A DNA stretch of 24,000 nt, taken from assembly GCF_018219455.1 (NCBI RefSeq), contig NZ_CP056122.1, positions 3,814,065-3,838,064 of the forward strand, given 5' to 3'. A model generated the notes under the pieces. The model had not been told where the DNA came from. It saw only the letters and a program-made list of their open reading frames with translations, and made no database searches. The stretch comes from Moritella sp. 5. GTDB taxonomy: Bacteria; Pseudomonadota; Gammaproteobacteria; Enterobacterales; Moritellaceae. Positions 15,442-24,000 of this stretch are shown here, piece by piece (positions within the stretch are counted from its first letter, which is position 1; each line of letters begins with the position of its first letter). Made by a program: the position numbers and the translations under genes.

Positions 15442-17997
15442 TTAAGCTGGCTGTAACGCTTCGCTAATTTCTACCTTTTCAGTTGCAGTGAGTCCATCAC
15501 TTGGTAAAAACTCTTTACCCCAACCCAAACCTGCAATTTCTTCTTCGATCATAGCTGCAATCTCAGCTTTATCATAACCAACGCCAGCTAAAACCTCTTG
15601 TGTAGAATGACCAAACCTCTCAGTTGGAGTAACAGATTTAATAAATGCTTCTACTGGTCGAATAGCATAATGATCAACTTGTGTTAATTTGTGGCCACTA
15701 GGGTGATTTGGATAGATAGAAAAAGCATAGCTTCCCCTGTCTATCCCTGCTGTCCCATTAATTTCACGACTGTATTGTTTACGTAAATCTTCAATGTTAC
15801 GGGGGATGACGGCTGCAATATCAATCTGGTGTAGCGCATCGATCCATGTTTGAGATTTTTTGGTTACCAAAATGCTTGTTAAAAATACTTTTTTATCTTG
15901 AGCATCAGTCAGTTTTTCTAAACCTGAGATAGTGGCTAATTTATCTTGCTCTTGCATGTTAGAGTCAATGAAAATCCAACCGTCTAGGGTCTTATAGAAG
16001 TGTGACAAAGCATTATTCCCAAGTGCATCACGACCAGACGGTTCATTAAATGGTGCTCGGCCTTCATAATCAAAAGCAAATGGGAGTTGCGCTAAATTTG
16101 TTACAGCTGAAAGCGATGTTCTTGCACGGCTTACTTCACCAGTACGTTGTAAATGGAATAACGATGTTGCCATCGCTAAACCGCCAGCGAAACCACAATT
16201 AACATCGAGAGTACCCAGATGAGCATGTTCTTCTGGCGTTGCTATTCCACCAAATCTGCTCATGATGCCACTGTTAGCTTGGATAATATCATCGTAACCA
16301 ATATAGTTTGTTTTAGGGCCTTCCAATGGACCACCTAAACAATCTAAACGGCAGAACAATATTTTTGGGTTAATAGCTAATAGGCTTTCTGAATCTAGGC
16401 CTAAATGTACCATTTGTCTGCTTGGCGCATTAATTAAAACAATATCACTTTCTTGTACTAAACGATTGAATACTTCACGACCTTTATTTGACATTATATC
16501 TATTAACGCGCTCTTTTTACCCATATTAGTTAGGAAAGTAAAAAACGTACCGATCAGTGGGTCATACATAGGAGAGACAGTATCAATTTTTGTTACTTCT
16601 GCGCCAAAACGTGTGAGTAATGCCGCAGCATGTGGTCCTGCAATAACGTTTGTTAAATCAAGGATTTTAATACCGTCTAACCAACCTTTATGACTAACAA
16701 TTGTTGAAGCTTCGGGTAAGTTACGCGCAGCTTCGTTGACTGATAATAAACCTAAAGCACGTGCAACGGTCACATTCATACGTGCTGTCGGTGTGACCAT
16801 ATCTGTTGCACATTCTTCTAACCATGCAATTGGGCCTGGCTGTTTCATTAAACCATACTGTGAGTCTTCAACTTTAACAATAAGACCTGATTTTTCACAA
16901 TGTTCACTGTTTACCCATTCTTGCGTGGTACGATGTGGTGCACCTGGAATCTTTCCTTCACCAAAAATCCCCCCCCATTCTTCGGATGTCTTTGTAAGGA
17001 ATGCCACTTTCATTTTTGTTGATATAATATCGGCCCATTTTTTAGGGAGTGGATAAACACCGATTGATGTTTCTCCATCCCATTCATTTGTTGGTAAATG
17101 TAGATTTTCAACTTCAGGTAAACCATCACTAATAAGTTCTTCATAAATGCCTAATGCCTTTAATGCACGTTTTGCATGATTTCGATGTGATGGGCAAACG
17201 CAATAAAACATGCGGCCATCTGCACATAAATATGTACGGTAAAATGGGTCTAAGTACTCTTGAAGGTCCTCGTAACTTAAATCCATTTCGATATTGTTTG
17301 CTTGACGATATTCAATTTCATGATCACGCATTGTTTTATAACGATTTGGTAAATTTTCAACAACATAAGAATTATATGATAAGCCTTCCATTAGCGCTGC
17401 AACAATTGGCACCTCTATATGATCTCCTCGGCCGCTTTTTTCTCTGGCATAAAGCGCCAAAATAACAGCGCTTGCGGCAAGTACGGTTGCGTATGAAGAA
17501 CCTAATGGCAATGGAGAAAAACTTGGATTTAAACCCATCAAGACTCGGTTATACCCCATATCACTAAACGCACCGGATGCAGCTGAAACGATTGCTTCCG
17601 TTGCTTTCCAACCACGACGCAGTTCATCATTACTTGCAAATCCAGGTATCGATAATGTAACCAACGCAGGGTTTTCCTGACGTAGAATTTCAAAATCAAT
17701 TCCTAACTTCTTCATTACACCTGGACGAAAGCTTTCGAGTACAACATCTGCTTTGGCGATTAGAGCCAGTGCTTCTTTACGTTGAGTTGGATCTTTCAAG
17801 TCTAAACGAAGACAACTCTTATTACGGTTCAATATGGCGTTAGCAGGGTGGTCCCAAAGTGGACCTGTCGGTGGGTCAATGTGAATAACAGTTGCGCCTA
17901 AGTCGGCAAGAATCATTGCTGCACCGGGGCCAGCTATTTGCTGACCAAAATCGATAATAGAAATACCTTTAAGTGGTAATTGAATTTGAGTTGTCAT
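15442..17997 (-). CDS. dddD: DMSP CoA-transferase/lyase DddD: two tandem class III (CaiB/BaiF) CoA-transferase domains in one 851-aa polypeptide
   Basis: The N-domain begins LKGISIIDFGQQIAGPGAAMILADLGATVIHID. The second domain begins at about residue 440, LDGIKILDLTNVIAGPHAAALLTRFGAEVTKID. Both are canonical family III N-terminal motifs. The size, two-domain architecture and synteny match the characterised Marinomonas dddD locus: divergent BCCT, Fe-ADH and MMSDH-like genes plus a LysR gene. Confidence 0.85.
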   Translation of the reverse strand: MTTQIQLPLKGISIIDFGQQIAGPGAAMILADLGATVIHIDPPTGPLWDHPANAILNRNKSCLRLDLKDPTQRKEALALIAKADVVLESFRPGVMKKLGIDFEILRQENPALVTLSIPGFASNDELRRGWKATEAIVSAASGAFSDMGYNRVLMGLNPSFSPLPLGSSYATVLAASAVILALYAREKSGRGDHIEVPIVAALMEGLSYNSYVVENLPNRYKTMRDHEIEYRQANNIEMDLSYEDLQEYLDPFYRTYLCADGRMFYCVCPSHRNHAKRALKALGIYEELISDGLPEVENLHLPTNEWDGETSIGVYPLPKKWADIISTKMKVAFLTKTSEEWGGIFGEGKIPGAPHRTTQEWVNSEHCEKSGLIVKVEDSQYGLMKQPGPIAWLEECATDMVTPTARMNVTVARALGLLSVNEAARNLPEASTIVSHKGWLDGIKILDLTNVIAGPHAAALLTRFGAEVTKIDTVSPMYDPLIGTFFTFLTNMGKKSALIDIMSNKGREVFNRLVQESDIVLINAPSRQMVHLGLDSESLLAINPKILFCRLDCLGGPLEGPKTNYIGYDDIIQANSGIMSRFGGIATPEEHAHLGTLDVNCGFAGGLAMATSLFHLQRTGEVSRARTSLSAVTNLAQLPFAFDYEGRAPFNEPSGRDALGNNALSHFYKTLDGWIFIDSNMQEQDKLATISGLEKLTDAQDKKVFLTSILVTKKSQTWIDALHQIDIAAVIPRNIEDLRKQYSREINGTAGIDRGSYAFSIYPNHPSGHKLTQVDHYAIRPVEAFIKSVTPTERFGHSTQEVLAGVGYDKAEIAAMIEEEIAGLGWGKEFLPSDGLTATEKVEISEALQPA

Positions 17998-18477
17998 GAT
18001 TAGATTCCAATTATATGAATTTCGATTTTATGATGTAAATTATTAATATCGTGTTCTTTCAAACGGATACTATTAGCAAAATAAAAATCAGACCAGCAAC
18101 AAAAATTTAACCTTAGATGTGTTTTTTTTTATGGCTAAAAATAAAGTGACAAGTCTCATATTCTTACTTGTAAATCTTTGACATTTTTCTTAAAACAATA
18201 AAGTACCACCTACGAGGTATCATTAAGTGTCTGTTTTATAACTATAAAAAAACTATGGCCATAGAGGTGATTTAAATTACTTTTCAATCACAGGTAACTG
18301 CTTAACAATGCAAACACTGAATTTATGACCTGCAATTAAGTTTCAGCATCACTTTATTAACATTTATGACAGGGGTTTCATTGTTGTAAATTACGTATTA
18401 AAAGCCGAAATACAATACGGTGATATATGACATTGTTGGTAGGTAATAATATTGATACATAATCTAAGGAGCTGTTT
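17998..18477. promoter_or_regulatory. 480-bp AT-rich divergent control region between dddD and dddT
   Basis: No credible ORF is present. Repeated elements: ATTTATGAC at 18321-18329 and 18362-18370, with the related ATATATGAC at 18423-18431 and TTTTATGAT at 18026-18034; GTAAATTA at about 18035 and about 18386; and the perfect palindrome CTATGGCCATAG at 18253-18264. It is the expected location of the DddR-dependent promoters. Confidence 0.5.
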
Positions 18478-20037
18478 GTGAGTCATCAAAATATGATCGC
18501 GAAGGAAGGATTTTTTAAAGGTTCAAATCCAGTCATGATGATTGGATCAGGGCTATTAATTTTATTTTTTATTATTTTTACAATTGTTGGTGGAGATTTT
18601 GCCAATACCATTTATAACAATTCAAAACAATTTATTACAGATAATTTAAGCTGGTATTACATTGGTTTAATGAGCATATTTTTATTTATCTCAATCTGGT
18701 TGATTTTCAGTCGCTTTGGTAAAGTACGCTTAGGCAAAGAGACTGATAGACCTGAATACAGTGATTTCGCTTGGTTTTCGATGCTATTCAGTGCTGGTAT
18801 CGCCATTGGTATTCTATTCTGGAGTATCGCAGAACCTATATATCACTACCAATCAAACCCCTTTGTCAGTGCCGCGATAGACCCTGAAGGTGCAAAACAA
18901 GTTGCGATGCGAGTGACGATTTTCCATTGGGGATTACATGGCTGGGCTATATTCGCTCTTATTGGCTTAGCCTTATCTTATTTTTCGTATAATAAAGGAC
19001 TACCACTGACGATACGTTCAGCATTGTATCCGATATTTGGTGAAAAAATTTATGGCCCAATAGGCCACACAGCAGATTATCTAGCCGTGTTTGGCACTGT
19101 ATTTGGTATTGCAACATCGCTTGGCCTTGGCGCTCAACAAATAAATGCGGGTATGAGCTATTTACTTGGTTTTGAAGTATCGACAGTCAATCAAATCATC
19201 ATTATCGCCATTGTGTCAGTAGTCGCTATCGGCTCGGTATTACTCGGTGTTGATAAAGGTATTAAAGTCATTAGTACCATCAACATGAAGCTGACGATTG
19301 TCATCCTGGTATTATTTTTGATACTCGGACCGACGGTTTATATTTTAAGTGAATTTGTACTTAATTTTGGTGATTATTTAACAAATGTTGTCGGACTTGG
19401 TTTTTGGGTTAACACTAATCCAGATGACTCTTGGCAAGGTGATTGGACAATTTTCTATTGGGGTTGGTGGTTATCTTGGGCACCATTTGTTGGTGTATTT
19501 ATCGCTCGTATCTCAAAAGGACGTACGATTAGGGAGTTTGTGGCGGGAGTTTTAGTTGCACCAACAATAATGGGCGCGTTCTGGATCACCACATTTGGCT
19601 CTACTGCATTTTATTTAGAACAAGCAGGTGCTGGCATTATCGATGCGGTAAACACTGACATGACGATGGCCTTGTTTAAAACAATTGAAGCCATGGATGC
19701 AGGCTCAATAATTACCATCTTAATGGCTGTCATTTGTGTCGTCATGCTTGTGACCTATTTTGTCACTTCAGCAGACTCTGCGACATTAGTTATTTGTTCA
19801 CTGGTGTGCATGGGTGAAAAAAATCCATTACCAAGATACCGCATTTTCTGGGGCTGTGCGATAGGCGCATCTGCAGCAGTGCTGCTACTTGCTGGAGGCT
19901 TAAAGACATTGCAAACCGCATCAGTATTGGCCGCACTACCATTTTCGTTCGTTATTATACTTTCTGTTATAGGCTTAATCCGTGCATTACATGAGGATTA
20001 TCCAACTGAATCAGCAACACTTGCCGAGCTAAAGTAA
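18478..20037 (+). CDS. dddT: BCCT-family (betaine/carnitine/choline-type) transporter, DMSP importer DddT-like
   Basis: BCCT signature WTIFYWGWWLSWAPFVGVFIARISKGRTIREF within a polytopic membrane protein. GTG start with AAGGAG 6 nt upstream. It is the first gene of the unit divergent from dddD. Confidence 0.85.
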   Translation: MSHQNMIAKEGFFKGSNPVMMIGSGLLILFFIIFTIVGGDFANTIYNNSKQFITDNLSWYYIGLMSIFLFISIWLIFSRFGKVRLGKETDRPEYSDFAWFSMLFSAGIAIGILFWSIAEPIYHYQSNPFVSAAIDPEGAKQVAMRVTIFHWGLHGWAIFALIGLALSYFSYNKGLPLTIRSALYPIFGEKIYGPIGHTADYLAVFGTVFGIATSLGLGAQQINAGMSYLLGFEVSTVNQIIIIAIVSVVAIGSVLLGVDKGIKVISTINMKLTIVILVLFLILGPTVYILSEFVLNFGDYLTNVVGLGFWVNTNPDDSWQGDWTIFYWGWWLSWAPFVGVFIARISKGRTIREFVAGVLVAPTIMGAFWITTFGSTAFYLEQAGAGIIDAVNTDMTMALFKTIEAMDAGSIITILMAVICVVMLVTYFVTSADSATLVICSLVCMGEKNPLPRYRIFWGCAIGASAAVLLLAGGLKTLQTASVLAALPFSFVIILSVIGLIRALHEDYPTESATLAELK

Positions 20038-20052
20038 TAACAATCAAATAGC

Positions 20053-20073
20053 GAGGGGTTATTGGTTCCCCTC
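20053..20073 (+). other. Short intercistronic hairpin GAGGGG-n9-CCCCTC between dddT and dddB
   Basis: A 6-bp G/C stem was read directly. It sits 15 nt after the dddT stop and is followed by tatattataaat. Confidence 0.35.
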
Positions 20074-20097
20074 TATATTATAAATAGGAAGATAGTC

Positions 20098-21261
20098 ATG
20101 TCATCACAAGTAATATTACCACGCATAATGCAAATTGGCGCTGGTGCAAGTAAAGATATAGTGAACGTTTTAAATAACTTGGGCGTATCGAAACCCTTGA
20201 TAATTACAGATAAAATGATGGTCAAATTAGGTTATGCAGCTCAAATCCAAAATGCATTAGCATTATCAAATTTAGCCGCTGAAATCTTTGATGATACAGT
20301 CCCAGAACCGACTGTCGCTTCGATTCAAAATGGTATCAATAAAGCTAAAAGTGGTGATTTTGATTGCTTAATCGCACTGGGTGGTGGCAGTCCGATTGAT
20401 AGCGCGAAAGCAATCTCTGTTTTGTCACAATTTGGTGGTGAAATGCGTGATTATAAAGTACCGAGGGTTGTTAGCGAGCAAGGATTACCCCTAATTGCAA
20501 TTCCAACGACCGCTGGCACTGGTACTGAATGTACATGTTTCACGATTATAACCGATGAAAAGAATGATGAAAAAATGTTATGCGCAGGCGTTGGTTTCAT
20601 GCCTGTTGCAGCATTGGTTGATTTTGAGTTAACCCTCTCATTACCAGCCCGAATTACCGCGGATACCGGCATTGACGCATTAACGCATGCGATCGAAGCT
20701 TATGTAAGTAGAAAATCGAATACGTTTAGTGACTCACAAGCTATCTCAGCGATGAAGCTCATCGCGCCAAATTTACGTAAAACATATCATGACGGTAATG
20801 ATAAAACGGCACGTGAAAACATTATGTTAGGCTCTACACTTGCAGGTATGGCATTTTCAAACGCTTCAGTTGCACTTGTACATGGCATGAGTCGACCCAT
20901 TGGTGCCGCATTTCATGTGCCGCACGGTTTATCCAACGCGATGTTATTACCGGCAGTTACTGCTTTTTCTATTCCAGCAGCACCTGAACGTTATGCTGAT
21001 TGCGCTAAAGCCATCGGGATTGCAAATGAAAGTGATTCAACTGATGTAGCCAATGGCAAGTTGATTGTAGAACTTAAGGCTCTAAATGTTGAGCTTAACG
21101 TACCAACACCAGCTGAGTTTGGTATTGAGGGCGCTAAGTACTTTGATTTACTGCCTACAATGGCAAAACAAGCATTAGCGTCAGGCTCACCAAATAACAA
21201 TCCTCGGGTTCCAAGCATTGACGAAATGATTGCGATATATAAAGAGATTTGGGTTGATTAA
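20098..21261 (+). CDS. dddB: Iron-containing (group III) alcohol dehydrogenase, DddB-like (3-hydroxypropionate to malonate semialdehyde)
   Basis: Fe-ADH motifs are present: GGGSPIDSAKA, IPTTAGTGTE, DALTHAIEAY, HGMSRPIG...HVPHG. The start was re-placed on the ATG at 20098 (MSSQVILP...), with AGGAAG 6 nt upstream. The track's TTG at 20062 adds 12 residues. The gene's position matches that in the ddd operon. Confidence 0.85.
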   Translation: MSSQVILPRIMQIGAGASKDIVNVLNNLGVSKPLIITDKMMVKLGYAAQIQNALALSNLAAEIFDDTVPEPTVASIQNGINKAKSGDFDCLIALGGGSPIDSAKAISVLSQFGGEMRDYKVPRVVSEQGLPLIAIPTTAGTGTECTCFTIITDEKNDEKMLCAGVGFMPVAALVDFELTLSLPARITADTGIDALTHAIEAYVSRKSNTFSDSQAISAMKLIAPNLRKTYHDGNDKTARENIMLGSTLAGMAFSNASVALVHGMSRPIGAAFHVPHGLSNAMLLPAVTAFSIPAAPERYADCAKAIGIANESDSTDVANGKLIVELKALNVELNVPTPAEFGIEGAKYFDLLPTMAKQALASGSPNNNPRVPSIDEMIAIYKEIWVD

Positions 21262-21304
21262 CTACCCAACTTTTACATGTAGCATTTTATATTAATTTAA
21301 ATAT

Positions 21305-21318
21305 AGCGAATATTCGCT
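21305..21318. repeat. Perfect 14-bp palindrome AGCGAATATTCGCT in the dddB-dddC spacer, 21 nt upstream of the dddC ATG
   Basis: Read directly. It could be a small RNA hairpin or a dimeric-regulator site. Confidence 0.8.
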
Positions 21319-21339
21319 TATCAAAAGGGAAGATCTCTC

Positions 21340-22881
21340 ATGAGTGAAGTAGTAATGGATAAATCTCAAGCGACAATCACAGAATTAACAACTATTGGTC
21401 AGCTGATTGACGGTGAAATGATTATTGATGGTGAACGTAGTCAGCCTATCTTCAACCCATCGACAGGTAAGTCAGAAAAGAATATTGATCTTGCCAGTGT
21501 TGCAACTGTTGAAGCTGCGATTACAAGTGCTCAAGCGGCATTCCCTGCATGGCGTAATACGGCACCTATTAAGCGTGCTCGTGTTATGTTTAAATTTAAA
21601 GAATTATTGGAACAGAATGCAGAAAAAATCTGCGAACTTATCGGCCAAGAACACGGTAAGATCTCTCATGATGCGATGGGTGAATTACAACGTGGTATTG
21701 AGAATGTGGAATACGCATGTGGTGCGCCAGAACTACTAAAAGGTGAATTTAGTAAAAATGTAGGACCAAGTATCGATTCCTGGAGCGAATTTCAACCACT
21801 TGGTGTGGTAACGGGTATTACACCATTTAACTTTCCTGTGATGGTACCTTGCTGGATGTTTCCAATGGCGATCGTGTGTGGTAACACATTCATTCTTAAG
21901 CCATCTGAACGCGACCCGAGCGCAACACTATTCATTGCTCAGTTACTACAAGACGCGGGTTTACCAAAAGGCGTACTTAACGTCATTAATGGTGATAAAA
22001 CCGCGGTTAATACACTATTAACAGATAAGCGTGTTCAAGCCGTTAGCTTTGTAGGCTCAACACCGATTGCGGAATATATTTATTCTACAGCAGCTGCTAA
22101 TGGTAAACGTTGTCAAGCACTTGGTGGTGCTAAAAACCACGCCATCATTATGCCAGATGCTGACATGGACAACGCTGTAAATCAGCTTGTTGGCGCTGCA
22201 TTTGGTTCATCTGGCGAACGCTGTATGGCATTATCTGTTGCTGTTGCTGTGGGCGACACAGCTGGTGACTTGTTGGTTGAAAAAATGACGATTGCAATGC
22301 AAGACTTAAAGGTAGGTCCATATAGCAATCCAAAAAATGATTTTGGTCCTGTTATTACAAAAGCACATCAAGAAAAAGTAAATGCGTATATTGATAGTGC
22401 AGAAAAAGATGGCGCCACGATTGTTGTTGATGGTCGTAATCCTGAAGTGGTTGGATATGAAGACGGCTTTTATGTTGGCGGTACATTAATTGATAACGTA
22501 ACAACAGATATGTTGAGCTACAGAGACGAGATATTTGGCCCTGTACTACAAGTTATTCGTGTTAATACAATGCAAGAAGCAATGGCGTTAATCGATGCAC
22601 ATGAATATGGTAATGGTACCTGTATCTTCACGCGTGATGGCGAAGCTGCACGTTACTTCTCTGATCATATTCAAGTTGGAATGGTCGGTATAAACGTACC
22701 GTTACCAGTGCCTGTTGCATATCACAGCTTTGGTGGTTGGAAACGTTCATTGTTTGGCGATTTACATGCCTATGGTCCAGATGGCGTTCGTTTTTATACA
22801 AAACGTAAAACAATTACCCAACGCTGGCCCTCTGCAAGTCTGCGTGAAAATGTTGAATTTGCAATGCCTACATTAAAATAA
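21340..22881 (+). CDS. dddC: CoA-acylating methylmalonate/malonate-semialdehyde dehydrogenase, DddC/MmsA-like
   Basis: ALDH superfamily member with MMSDH hallmarks: FNFPVMVPCWMFPMAIVCGNTFILKPSE, ALGGAKNH (in place of the usual ELGGK), and the catalytic Cys in GERCMA. An alternative start at Met6 (21355) is possible. Confidence 0.88.
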   Translation: MSEVVMDKSQATITELTTIGQLIDGEMIIDGERSQPIFNPSTGKSEKNIDLASVATVEAAITSAQAAFPAWRNTAPIKRARVMFKFKELLEQNAEKICELIGQEHGKISHDAMGELQRGIENVEYACGAPELLKGEFSKNVGPSIDSWSEFQPLGVVTGITPFNFPVMVPCWMFPMAIVCGNTFILKPSERDPSATLFIAQLLQDAGLPKGVLNVINGDKTAVNTLLTDKRVQAVSFVGSTPIAEYIYSTAAANGKRCQALGGAKNHAIIMPDADMDNAVNQLVGAAFGSSGERCMALSVAVAVGDTAGDLLVEKMTIAMQDLKVGPYSNPKNDFGPVITKAHQEKVNAYIDSAEKDGATIVVDGRNPEVVGYEDGFYVGGTLIDNVTTDMLSYRDEIFGPVLQVIRVNTMQEAMALIDAHEYGNGTCIFTRDGEAARYFSDHIQVGMVGINVPLPVPVAYHSFGGWKRSLFGDLHAYGPDGVRFYTKRKTITQRWPSASLRENVEFAMPTLK

Positions 22882-22911
22882 AGAAAATAATAAGCTAGAG
22901 TGTATTTATTT

Positions 22912-22949
22912 TTGTCTGTAGCCGCAAAAAAGTTTAGCGCTACAGACAA
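22912..22949 (+). terminator. Hairpin TTGTCTGTAGC...GCTACAGACAA downstream of dddC; probable terminator
   Basis: An 11-bp stem (plus 2 bp after a bulge) sits 31 nt after the stop. It is followed by cttatttg, a weak U-tract. Confidence 0.55.
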
Positions 22950-23056
22950 CTTATTTGAACAATAAAGATATATCTTAACCCATTAACATATATAACTTTT
23001 TATTTTTACTCCGAATTTAATTAAGTATAAGCATGCTCTTAATATAAGTTTTTTAT

Positions 23057-23068
23057 CTTAGATCTAAG
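23057..23068. promoter_or_regulatory. Perfect 12-bp palindrome CTTAGATCTAAG upstream of dddR; possible autoregulatory site
   Basis: Read directly. It lies 65-76 bp upstream of the dddR ATG. LysR regulators commonly autoregulate through dyads in this position. No direct evidence supports this here. Confidence 0.3.
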
Positions 23069-23132
23069 TCTAATAAAAGTTAATTTTAGCATGATAACAT
23101 TCACGACAATGTGTCTCATACATGGTTCTAAA

Positions 23133-24000
23133 ATGAAAAAAAATCTCCCCCCTTTAAACTGGTTGCGTTCCTTTGAAGCATCAGCTCGCCATTTGAATTT
23201 TACCCAAGCGGCAAATGAACTGAATTTGACCCAAGCGGCAATTAGTACTCAAATAAAATGTTTAGAAGCTAATTTAGGTATGCCTCTATTTACCCGTTTA
23301 CCACGTGGTTTAACATTGACTGATTCTGGACAATCATACTTACCACCCGTTAGCGAAGCCATTAATAAACTTGCAGCCACAACCAATGAGATTTTTGGTG
23401 ATAGCAAAAAAATAAAAATTACAGTGTGCTCTAACCTCGTATTTTTTTGCCAATGGTTAGCGCCTAGAATGGCCTCCTTTTACGAGCAACACCCTGACAT
23501 TTTGATTCGTTTTACGAGTAATATTTGGGCCGATGACCTGGATAAAAATTCAGATGTTAATGTAGGATATGGTCATGGTAATTGGGACGGTTTTCGCTCC
23601 GACAGACTGACTTGGGATGAATTAATACCTGTATGTAGCCCCACATTATTAAGTTGTATGCCAACCCCTAAATGCCCGAGTGAACTTAATGAGTATGCTT
23701 TATTGCACGTGATTGGTTATGAAGAAGGCTGGGGACATTGGCTTAACGCAACTGGATTTCATGATATTAATACTGATAAAGGAATGACATTTGATACATT
23801 AGTATCCGCATTTGAAATGGCTAAACATGGACACGGTATTGCGCTAGGACGTAGCTCTTTGGTTAAAAAATCAATACTCAAAGGTGAGTTGATAGCTCCA
23901 TTTTCGCAAACAATACCAACCACCGAAGGTTTTTATTTAAAAACACCAACAAGTCAAATTGATAATAAAAAAATTGAAACGTTTAGACAATGGATTCTAA
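23133..24000 (+). CDS. dddR: LysR-family (GcvA-type) transcriptional regulator, DddR-like; 3' end outside the window (absent from the supplied ORF track)
   Basis: My own translation from the ATG at 23133 is open to nt 24000 (289 codons). It reads MKKNLPPLNWLRSFEASARHLNFTQAANELNLTQAAISTQIKCLEANLGMPLFTRLPRGLTLTDSG..., the classic GcvA-like LysR wHTH, followed by a substrate-binding-domain-like sequence. Its position after dddC matches the Marinomonas dddTBCR arrangement. Confidence 0.85.
   Translation, partial: MKKNLPPLNWLRSFEASARHLNFTQAANELNLTQAAISTQIKCLEANLGMPLFTRLPRGLTLTDSGQSYLPPVSEAINKLAATTNEIFGDSKKIKITVCSNLVFFCQWLAPRMASFYEQHPDILIRFTSNIWADDLDKNSDVNVGYGHGNWDGFRSDRLTWDELIPVCSPTLLSCMPTPKCPSELNEYALLHVIGYEEGWGHWLNATGFHDINTDKGMTFDTLVSAFEMAKHGHGIALGRSSLVKKSILKGELIAPFSQTIPTTEGFYLKTPTSQIDNKKIETFRQWIL

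What the first reader, a model, noticed from the sequence alone, without database searches (positions are those of the whole stretch)
15442..24000. Complete DddD-type DMSP-catabolism / dimethyl-sulfide-production cluster (dddD | dddT-dddB-dddC, dddR)
Seen in the sequence:
- an 851-aa protein made of two tandem class III CoA-transferase domains;
- divergent from it, a BCCT transporter, an iron-type alcohol dehydrogenase and a CoA-acylating (methyl)malonate-semialdehyde dehydrogenase;
- after those, a GcvA-like LysR regulator.

Established knowledge: this gene content and order is that of the Marinomonas sp. MWYL1 ddd locus. There, DddD releases DMS from the algal osmolyte DMSP and yields 3-hydroxypropionate(-CoA). 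DddT imports DMSP. DddB and DddC convert 3-HP via malonate semialdehyde to acetyl-CoA. DddR activates transcription in response to DMSP.

Automated annotation would probably label these genes only as 'CoA transferase', 'BCCT transporter' and 'aldehyde dehydrogenase', hiding a climate-relevant trait. No dddA, acuN/acuK or dmdA is present in this window.
Basis: partly seen in the sequence, partly recalled or inferred. Interest (0 to 1): 0.75.

Follow-up and report, generated by a model that had tools for sequence, protein, structure and literature searches.

The report
DMSP-to-DMS gene cluster in Moritella

Summary
The observation and the interpretation both hold. Window 15442-24000 holds dddD (851 aa, two class III CoA-transferase domains). 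Divergent from it are dddT (BCCT), dddB (Fe-ADH), dddC (MMSDH) and dddR (GcvA-like LysR, 289 of 293 codons before the window ends).

The window is from Moritella: the 851-aa protein is 100% identical to 'CoA transferase [Moritella sp. 5]'. It is 66% identical over its full length to Swiss-Prot DddD of Marinomonas MWYL1, 69% to Oceanimonas doudoroffii DddD and 67% to the recombinantly verified SAR92 H921 DddD. It sits inside the DddD clade and keeps the C-domain catalytic Asp (D598, equivalent to D602). It has Ser at the matching N-domain position, like all DddDs aligned. Most of the 80 DddD loci fetched from other genomes show the same order and orientation.

Between two Moritella strains the genes differ mostly by synonymous changes. 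The cluster is accessory in the genus. The Moritella sp. JT01 copy is already labelled DddD in GenBank.

By-product: a conserved 45-bp element and a fixed-distance -10 box lie upstream of dddD in nearly every locus tested. A weaker copy faces dddT. This is probably the DddR operator and promoter, which I did not find described.

Activity is untested. Verdict: known system, new host genus, modest interest.

The parts
15442..17997 (-). dddD: DMSP CoA-transferase/lyase, 851 aa. It has two tandem class III CoA-transferase domains. The catalytic Asp is D598 in the C-terminal domain, with S167 at the equivalent N-terminal position. There is an 18-aa C-terminal tail (834-851) that the other nine DddDs aligned in A1 lack; SAR92 DddDs carry an unrelated ~35-aa C-terminal extension.
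   Evidence: Placement in the clade.
15397..15431 (-). Perfect 16-bp AT-rich hairpin just after the dddD stop. It lies inside the block shared with strain JT01. It may be a transcript-end or stabilising structure, but no U-run follows it.
   Evidence: region z-score -6. The block shared with JT01 starts at 15368.
18067..18072 (-). Predicted -10 box of the dddD promoter (TAGTAT). It sits at the one offset, 20 nt past the conserved TTGCTGG block, where 85% of 48 loci carry a TAnnAT-like hexamer.
   Evidence: Unchanged between the two Moritella strains.
18092..18136 (.). Conserved 45-bp ungapped element upstream of dddD. Consensus: AACCAGCAATAAAAAA-N3-CCCTnAGGC-nTnA-TTTTTTTTATGGCT. Candidate DddR operator, spanning about -33 to -76 of the predicted dddD promoter.
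   Evidence: Sequence-only model hit at 18089-18141, 46 bits, E 4e-12. No difference between strains.
18234..18283 (.). Second, weaker copy of the same element in the opposite orientation, facing dddT. A possible -10 (AACAAT) lies at 18304-18309.
   Evidence: 18234-18278, minus strand, 18.1 bits, E 0.002. Second copies with the same orientation occur in about 40 other loci, also when dddR lies between dddT and dddD.
18478..20037 (+). dddT: BCCT-family transporter, the presumed DMSP importer. GTG start 6 nt after an AAGGAG ribosome-binding site.
   Evidence: Identity to the DddT of other ddd loci is 56-66% (65% to the Marinomonas proxy L062).
20098..21261 (+). dddB: iron-type alcohol dehydrogenase, presumed to oxidise 3-hydroxypropionate to malonate semialdehyde. 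The ORF is open from a TTG at 20062, but the probable start is the ATG at 20098.
   Evidence: Identity to syntenic DddB is mostly 65-74%.
21340..22881 (+). dddC: CoA-acylating (methyl)malonate-semialdehyde dehydrogenase, presumed to convert malonate semialdehyde to acetyl-CoA.
   Evidence: TIGR01722, 662 bits against a cutoff of 448. Identity to syntenic DddC is 75-82%.
22914..22947 (+). Stem-loop between dddC and dddR. No clear U-run follows it, so dddR may have its own promoter or may be read through from dddC.
   Evidence: (z -2.6) and sequence.
23133..24000 (+). dddR: GcvA-like LysR-type regulator. The window holds 289 of 293 codons and cuts off the last four codons and the stop.
   Evidence: Identity to the syntenic LysR of other ddd loci is 50-61%.

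Best explanation
[quoted passage not shown] The proposed mechanism has five steps.

1. DddT, a BCCT transporter, imports DMSP. This is inferred from orthology.
2. DddD is one polypeptide that mimics the two-subunit class III CoA-transferase, with a single live active site at D598 in the C-terminal domain. The N-terminal domain has Ser at the equivalent position. DddD transfers CoA from acetyl-CoA to DMSP and eliminates DMS, leaving 3-hydroxypropionate or its CoA ester. That chemistry has been shown for orthologues. Here only the residues and the orthology are shown.
3. DddB oxidises 3-hydroxypropionate to malonate semialdehyde, and DddC converts that to acetyl-CoA plus CO2. Both steps are inferred from family membership and conserved linkage.
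4. DddR, a LysR-type activator, switches on the two divergent promoters when DMSP or a product is present. Activation by DddR is reported for Marinomonas. Here I infer that DddR acts through the conserved 45-bp element that sits over the -35 region of dddD, and through a weaker inverted copy before dddT.
5. The cluster is an accessory trait in Moritella, kept under purifying selection.
For: Domain content and family scores.

Sequence identity:
- 100% to a Moritella sp. 5 protein and 99% to Moritella sp. JT01.
- 66% full-length to Swiss-Prot DddD of Marinomonas MWYL1 and 69% to O. doudoroffii DddD.
- 67% to SAR92 H921 DddD, whose recombinant protein makes DMS from DMSP plus acetyl-CoA.
- 70% to the DddD of Endozoicomonas acroporae, a strain shown to make DMS and to induce dddD.

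Placement inside the DddD clade.

Catalytic residues:
- D598 aligns with the catalytic Asp of YfdW/Frc-type transferases and with D602 of MWYL1.
- S167 replaces it in the N-terminal domain and is invariant in 10 DddDs.

Synteny: most of the 80 genome loci show the same divergent dddD | dddT-dddB-dddC-dddR layout, with DddT 56-66%, DddB mostly 65-74%, DddC 75-82% and DddR 50-61% identical.

Purifying selection between two Moritella strains, as synonymous/nonsynonymous codon differences: dddD 46/11, dddT 10/0, dddB 31/7, dddC 30/1, dddR 58/13.

Promoter and operator: the conserved operator plus fixed-distance -10 is present and unchanged in both strains.

Published background: DddD needs acetyl-CoA and yields DMS plus 3HP or 3HP-CoA, and dddD clusters carry transport, 3HP-metabolism and regulator genes (PMC10746254). 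DddR is the DMSP-responsive activator in Marinomonas (PMC13104084).
Against: - No experiment on any Moritella strain was found: no paper in the searchable library links Moritella with DddD or DMSP catabolism.
- The Moritella DddD lies on a rather long branch near the base of the clade and carries an unusual 18-aa tail.
- The tree is neighbour-joining without bootstrap support.
- DddB and DddC functions are not established biochemically even in the model organisms (PMC7174347).
- The link between DddR and the 45-bp element rests on co-occurrence and position only.
- My statement that D602 is the experimentally proven catalytic residue of MWYL1 DddD comes from memory of Alcolombri et al. 2014, which I could not open.
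Confidence: 0.88

Rival explanations
1. The cluster is a true DddD-family cluster, but in Moritella its physiological substrate is another zwitterionic osmolyte (a different sulfonium or quaternary ammonium compound). DMSP would then be at best a side substrate.
For: - The Moritella DddD sits on a long branch and has a lineage-specific tail.
- Close DddD homologues occur in non-marine bacteria such as Rhizobium rhizogenes and Leclercia, where DMSP is scarce.
- DddD's reported Km for DMSP is very high, above 40 mM (PMC5395565).
- Strain JT01 comes from 6957 m depth.
Against: - Identity to enzymes with shown DMSP lyase activity is 66-70% over the full length, and the active-site Asp and its surrounding motif are conserved.
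- The full downstream 3-hydroxypropionate route and the conserved promoter/operator are the same as in DMSP degraders.
Confidence: 0.07
2. The cluster is a silent or decaying horizontally acquired remnant in Moritella and confers no phenotype.
For: - It is patchy in the genus. Only one Moritella species representative among GTDB genomes carries it, and the 90% protein cluster holds only a few strains.
- It lies next to a strain-variable region.
Against: - All five reading frames are intact.
- Synonymous changes strongly outnumber nonsynonymous ones between two strains.
- The operator copy 1 and the -10 box are identical in both strains.
- G+C content is like the rest of the window.
Confidence: 0.04
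3. The 851-aa protein is a carnitine/crotonobetaine-type (CaiB) or other generic CoA-transferase, and the cluster degrades carnitine-like compounds.
For: Public names such as 'carnitine dehydratase' and 'CaiB-like acyl-CoA transferase' are attached to many homologues.
Against: - The CaiB equivalog model scores 120 bits against a cutoff of 413, and every other named class III transferase model also falls far below its cutoff.
- CaiB is a single-domain protein of about 400 aa, and no caiA, caiC, caiD or caiE genes are nearby.
- The protein is orthologous to verified DddDs.
Confidence: 0.01

Closest known systems
Marinomonas sp. MWYL1 ddd locus (dddD | dddT-dddB-dddC-dddR; Todd et al. 2007), with DddD = Swiss-Prot A6W2K8
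   Same: - Same five genes, in the same order and with the same divergent orientation.
- DddD is 66% identical over 837 aa and keeps D602 (D598 here).
- A Marinomonas locus whose DddD is in the same 90% cluster (L062) gives DddT 65%, DddB 72%, DddC 80% and DddR 57% identity.
- The same 45-bp upstream element and -10 spacing are present.
   Different: - The host is Moritella (Alteromonadales, psychrophilic), not Oceanospirillales.
- DddD carries an 18-aa C-terminal tail.
- The second operator copy is weaker than in Marinomonas.
- No experimental data exist for Moritella.
SAR92-clade ddd clusters (strains H921, H231, H455, HTCC2207; PMC10746254)
   Same: - DddD is 67% identical, and the SAR92 enzymes are verified as recombinant DMSP lyases.
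- dddD is divergent from dddT-dddB-dddC.
- DddD carries a C-terminal extension.
- The lineage is enriched in polar and cold water.
   Different: - SAR92 clusters have an extra iclR gene between dddC and lysR, which the 251-bp dddC-dddR gap here has no room for.
- The SAR92 tail is about 35 aa and unrelated in sequence.
Halomonas HTNK1 / D47 ddd-acu cluster (dddTD, dddCA-acuNK, acuZ, acuR, acuI; PMC13104084)
   Same: - DddD-based DMSP cleavage to 3-hydroxypropionate.
- A BCCT DddT, a DddC, and a LysR-type regulator.
   Different: - The operon layout differs.
- DddA (a different oxidoreductase family) takes the place of DddB, and acrylate genes acuN, acuK and acuI and the TetR regulator AcuR are present there but absent here.
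- The reported AcuZ sites (AATTGATT, TATA-N8-GATA) do not resemble the element found here.
Single-domain class III CoA-transferases (Frc, YfdW, CaiB)
   Same: Each half of DddD matches this fold family, and the C-terminal half keeps the nucleophilic Asp.
   Different: - Those enzymes are interlocked homodimers of about 400-aa chains with two active sites.
- DddD fuses two diverged copies in one chain, and only one keeps the Asp.
- All equivalog models score far below their cutoffs.

Membership tests
DddD (DMSP CoA-transferase/lyase) | One polypeptide of about 830-850 aa with two tandem class III CoA-transferase domains | tested here: met
   851 aa. PF02515 matches twice, E 7e-108. The alignment with nine DddDs has gaps only in the inter-domain linker (columns 428-437) and at the C-terminal tail.
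DddD (DMSP CoA-transferase/lyase) | Full-length orthology to experimentally characterised DddD enzymes | tested here: met
   66% to Marinomonas MWYL1 A6W2K8. 69% to O. doudoroffii. 67% to SAR92 H921 (with activity in PMC10746254).
DddD (DMSP CoA-transferase/lyase) | Placement inside the DddD clade rather than among other two-domain CaiB-like proteins | tested here: met
   Neighbour-joining tree of 115 proteins: the protein is nested with Marinomonas, SAR92, Endozoicomonas and others. The next representatives are only 53-54% identical. No bootstrap was run.
DddD (DMSP CoA-transferase/lyase) | Nucleophilic Asp retained in the C-terminal domain (D602 in MWYL1 numbering) and lost in the N-terminal domain | tested here: met
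   D598 aligns with D602 and with the catalytic Asp of YfdW. The N-terminal domain has S167 opposite the Asp of 3ubm and Rv3272, and S167 is invariant in A1. That D602 is proven catalytic rests on my memory of Alcolombri 2014.
DddD (DMSP CoA-transferase/lyase) | Acetyl-CoA-dependent release of DMS from DMSP | not testable with these tools
   Needs an enzyme or whole-cell assay with gas chromatography.
Marinomonas-type ddd cluster | dddD divergent from dddT-dddB-dddC, with a DddR-type LysR gene | tested here: met
   the window and most of the 80 loci show the identical layout. L062 serves as the proxy for MWYL1.
Marinomonas-type ddd cluster | DMSP-inducible transcription through DddR | not testable with these tools
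   Indirect support only: the conserved operator-like element and -10 box at both promoters.
BCCT transporters (DddT) | BCCT family membership | tested here: met
   PF02028 608 bits. TIGR00842 498 bits against a cutoff of 408. The glycine-betaine equivalog scores 563 bits, below its cutoff of 650. DMSP transport itself is not testable.
CoA-acylating (methyl)malonate-semialdehyde dehydrogenase (DddC) | Score above the TIGR01722 cutoff | tested here: met
   661.9 bits against a cutoff of 448.5.
Iron-type alcohol dehydrogenase (DddB) | Fe-ADH N- and C-terminal domains; 3-hydroxypropionate specificity | tested here: inconclusive
   Both Pfam domains are present, but no NCBIfam equivalog reaches its cutoff. 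Substrate is inferred only from conserved linkage.
CaiB (carnitine CoA-transferase) | Score above the NF002914 equivalog cutoff | tested here: not met
   119.9 bits against a cutoff of 413.

The most novel reading that the evidence does not exclude
The 45-bp element (AACCAGCAATAAAAAA-N3-CCCTnAGGC-nTnA-TTTTTTTTATGGCT) and the -10 box exactly 20 nt beyond it form the shared, so far undescribed, DddR-dependent promoter of DddD clusters, from Moritella to SAR92, Marinomonas, Pseudomonas and Colwellia. A weaker inverted copy drives dddT. If so, DMSP-inducible promoters could be recognised from sequence alone. The Moritella copies, one of them from a hadal piezophile, would mark regulated DMSP catabolism in cold and deep water.
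Probability: 0.45. Interest if true: 0.45.

Novelty: new member of a known kind. Interest (0 to 1): 0.3.

Why it matters
DddD clusters are among the main routes by which marine bacteria turn DMSP into DMS, a gas relevant to the sulfur cycle and to cloud formation. Finding an intact copy under selection in Moritella adds a psychrophilic genus, partly from the deep sea, to the list of likely DMS producers. One carrier, JT01, was isolated at 6957 m. The finding also shows that standard annotation ('CoA transferase') hides the trait. It does not change what is known about the pathway. The more useful by-product is a sequence signature for the promoter and operator of these clusters. It could guide regulator studies and help read metagenomes.

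Tried and rejected
- **RNA or DNA hairpin reading of the 45-bp element.** RNAalifold found no consensus structure. An explicit 15-pair dyad helix showed no covariation: 497 of 500 shuffles paired as well. Rejected in favour of a protein-binding site.
- **Sigma-54 promoter reading of the element.** The GG and GC blocks are 1-3 nt off the required spacing when read by eye from the alignment. Rejected.
- **TTGCTG as a standard -35 box.** The conserved -10 lies 21 nt away, which is too far. The true -35 region is poor, as expected for an activator-dependent promoter.
- **The consensus promoter scan's best hit** (18039-18010, 11 of 12 matches). It is not the conserved one, and the scan as a whole found no more sites than shuffled sequence.
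- **A solved DddD structure.** None is in the PDB copy.
- **Alcolombri et al. 2014.** Not held in the library.
- **Literature on Moritella plus DddD or DMSP.** Nothing relevant. A search for 'DddR' alone returned pacemaker papers.
- **Island boundaries in other Moritella.** Exact look-ups of window proteins (the second APC permease, EbgC and DddD) were not on record. The empty site in ddd-less Moritella could therefore not be shown.
- **Known RNA families and tRNAs in the window.** None found. No integrase or IS gene was seen next to the cluster.
- **The two APC permeases next to dddD as part of the cluster.** Rejected, because they lie in the 12.8-kb block that strain JT01 lacks.

Full report
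**What is in the sequence**

The region 15442-24000 holds five intact or nearly intact genes.
- An 851-aa ORF on the minus strand (15442-17997) matches Pfam CoA_transf_3 twice.
- Across a 480-bp gap, on the plus strand, lie three genes. The first is a 519-aa BCCT transporter (18478-20037). The second is an iron-type alcohol dehydrogenase, whose ORF opens at 20062 but probably starts at the ATG at 20098 behind an AGGAAG site, and ends at 21261. The third is a 513-aa aldehyde dehydrogenase that passes the curated cutoff of the CoA-acylating methylmalonate-semialdehyde dehydrogenase model (662 against 448 bits).
- After a 251-bp gap comes a GcvA-like LysR regulator (23133 onward). The window cuts it four codons before its stop, judged from the 293-aa copy in a sister strain.

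The rest of the window holds a serine/threonine permease, galM-galK-galT-galE, ebgR-ebgA-ebgC and two paralogous APC permeases. There is no dddA, acuN, acuK or dmdA.

**Where the window comes from**

The 851-aa protein is 100% identical to 'CoA transferase [Moritella sp. 5]'. A locus in Moritella sp. JT01 is 99% identical in protein and 96.9% identical in DNA over the whole ddd block.

**Is the big protein a DddD?**

I recovered the Swiss-Prot DddD of Marinomonas sp. MWYL1 (A6W2K8) and the Oceanimonas doudoroffii DddD from the cluster tables.
- The window protein is 66% and 69% identical to them over the full length, with only a 4-6 residue gap in the inter-domain linker.
- It is 67% identical to the DddD of SAR92 strain H921. 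The H921 recombinant protein releases DMS from DMSP plus acetyl-CoA (PMC10746254).
- It is 70% identical to the DddD of Endozoicomonas acroporae. That strain makes DMS and induces dddD (PMC7174347).

A scan of 1.84 billion representative proteins shows a continuum of two-domain CaiB-like proteins, from 54% down to about 30% identity. In a neighbour-joining tree with 82 of these and 33 DddD-clade proteins, the Moritella protein sits inside the DddD clade. A long stem separates that clade from the nearest outsiders. Its own branch is rather long.

**Active site**

- The Asp of the motif LGTLDVNCGF (D598) aligns with D602 of the MWYL1 enzyme.
- It also aligns with the nucleophilic Asp of YfdW/Frc-type class III transferases.
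- In the N-terminal domain the same position is Ser167, and this residue is invariant in ten DddDs.

The protein therefore looks like a fused pseudo-dimer with one live active site, as in the family. That D602 is experimentally essential is my recollection of Alcolombri et al. 2014, which I could not open. Every curated model of a named class III transferase, CaiB included, scores far below its cutoff. No DddD structure is in the PDB copy.

**Context**

tblastn of the window's proteins against 80 DddD loci from other genomes shows the same divergent dddD | dddT-dddB-dddC-dddR layout in most of them. Identities are DddT 56-66%, DddB mostly 65-74%, DddC 75-82% and DddR 50-61%. L062 is a Marinomonas locus whose DddD is in the same 90% cluster as the MWYL1 protein. 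It has the same order, with 65, 72, 80 and 57% identity.

The Moritella cluster lacks the iclR gene of SAR92 and Pseudomonas clusters. It also lacks the acu genes of Halomonas.

**Is it functional in Moritella?**

Between strains sp. 5 and JT01, codon differences are mostly synonymous (synonymous/nonsynonymous):

| Gene | Synonymous | Nonsynonymous |
|---|---|---|
| dddD | 46 | 11 |
| dddT | 10 | 0 |
| dddB | 31 | 7 |
| dddC | 30 | 1 |
| dddR | 58 | 13 |

 Four of the eleven DddD changes fall in an 18-aa C-terminal tail that the other nine DddDs aligned in A1 lack. SAR92 DddDs have an unrelated tail of about 35 aa.

**Distribution in the genus**

- Among GTDB species representatives, only one Moritella genome carried a close DddD.
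- The 90% protein cluster holds only sp. 5, two further unclassified Moritella accessions, JT01 and four metagenome sequences. The trait is therefore accessory.
- Next to dddD, a 12.8-kb block (2545-15367: the gal genes, the ebg genes and two permeases) is present in this strain. In JT01 about 1.7 kb with an MFS gene takes its place.
- Two other Moritella contigs have the gal-ebg block next to the same permease gene, so JT01 probably lost it.
- I could not show the empty site in a ddd-less Moritella.
- No tRNA, integrase or compositional break marks the cluster.

**A conserved promoter and operator, found in passing**

I compared the dddD-proximal intergenic regions of 63 loci and found an ungapped 45-bp element: AACCAGCAATAAAAAA-N3-CCCTnAGGC-nTnA-TTTTTTTTATGGCT. 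It always has the same orientation relative to dddD.

I built a sequence-only model of it and scanned 1.34 Mb.
- Nearly every locus scanned gave one strong hit (most E values 1e-17 to 1e-8), always upstream of dddD. These include loci not used to build the model. The alphaproteobacterial loci (Pseudovibrio, Cohaesibacter, Limimaricola) gave weak hits or none.
- About 40 loci gave a weaker second copy in the opposite orientation, nearer dddT or dddB. This also holds in loci where dddR lies between dddT and dddD.
- Almost nothing else in the scanned sequence matched.

In the window, the first copy is at 18092-18136 (46 bits). The second copy is at 18234-18283 (18 bits, E 0.002).

On the dddD-sense strand, a TAnnAT hexamer follows the element at exactly one offset, 20 nt past TTGCTGG. 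At that offset 85% of 48 loci match TATAAT at 4 of 6 positions or better, against at most 31% at any other offset. In the window this hexamer is TAGTAT at 18072-18067. It puts the element at about -33 to -76 of a promoter with a poor -35 region, which is the classic layout of a LysR-activated promoter. The element and the -10 box are identical in both Moritella strains, whereas the spacer between the two copies has accumulated changes.

A hairpin reading was tested and rejected. Rfam has no match.

The one recent paper on ddd regulation I could read says the mechanism of DddR-type regulation was unclear. It reports different sites for the Halomonas regulator AcuZ. I therefore propose, without proof, that this element is the DddR operator.

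**Verdict**

The system is a member of a well-known kind in a genus where I found no published report. One Moritella copy (JT01, KXO07111.1) is already labelled DddD in GenBank.

Activity, induction and the regulator-operator link remain untested. Interest is modest, at about 0.3. The ecological angle is a psychrophilic genus, with one carrier isolated from 6957 m. That angle and the promoter signature are the parts worth following up.

Noticed in passing
window 18067-18136 and 18234-18309; also L002-L080 just upstream of dddD: A conserved 45-bp ungapped element and a -10-like hexamer at a fixed 20-nt distance lie upstream of dddD in nearly every DddD locus tested. A weaker inverted copy faces dddT. 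This is a candidate DddR operator and promoter. I did not find it described in the papers I could read.
   Followed up: yes
window 2545-15367 versus L001 12636-14350: A 12.8-kb block (galM-galK-galT-galE, ebgR-ebgA-ebgC and two APC permeases) abuts dddD in this strain. In Moritella sp. JT01 about 1.7 kb with an MFS transporter gene takes its place. Other Moritella contigs (L081, L082) keep gal-ebg next to the same permease gene, so JT01 probably lost it.
   Followed up: partly
window 15442-15495 (DddD residues 834-851): The Moritella DddD has an 18-aa C-terminal tail after the usual ...EFLPS end. Four of the eleven amino-acid differences between the two strains fall in it. SAR92 DddDs carry an unrelated tail of about 35 aa.
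   Followed up: partly
window 12198-13655 and 13867-15300: Two tandem paralogous APC-family (YjeM-like) permease genes, 56% identical to each other, lie directly after ebgC. Their substrate is unknown. They are convergent with dddD and are not part of the ddd block shared with JT01.
   Followed up: partly
window 7182-12062: A complete ebgR-ebgA-ebgC (second beta-galactosidase) set passes the NCBIfam equivalog cutoffs that were built on enterobacterial proteins. It sits beside the Leloir-pathway genes galM, galK, galT and galE, which run in the opposite direction.
   Followed up: no
window 15397-15431 and 15329-15355: Two strong hairpins lie between dddD and the APC permease gene. One is a perfect 16-bp AT-rich palindrome just after the dddD stop, inside the block shared with JT01. 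The other is a GC-rich terminator-like stem just outside that block. The break in homology with JT01 (15368) falls between them.
   Followed up: partly
window 20052-20075: A small GAGGGG...CCCCTC stem-loop lies between dddT and dddB. It is not significantly more stable than shuffled sequence (z -1.4).
   Followed up: partly
L060 (Leclercia tamurae), L065 (Rhizobium rhizogenes): Close DddD homologues (68-69% identical) with dddB, dddC and/or a LysR gene occur in non-marine Enterobacteriaceae and Rhizobium genomes. The upstream element is still recognisable there (E 4e-11 and 4e-5).
   Followed up: no
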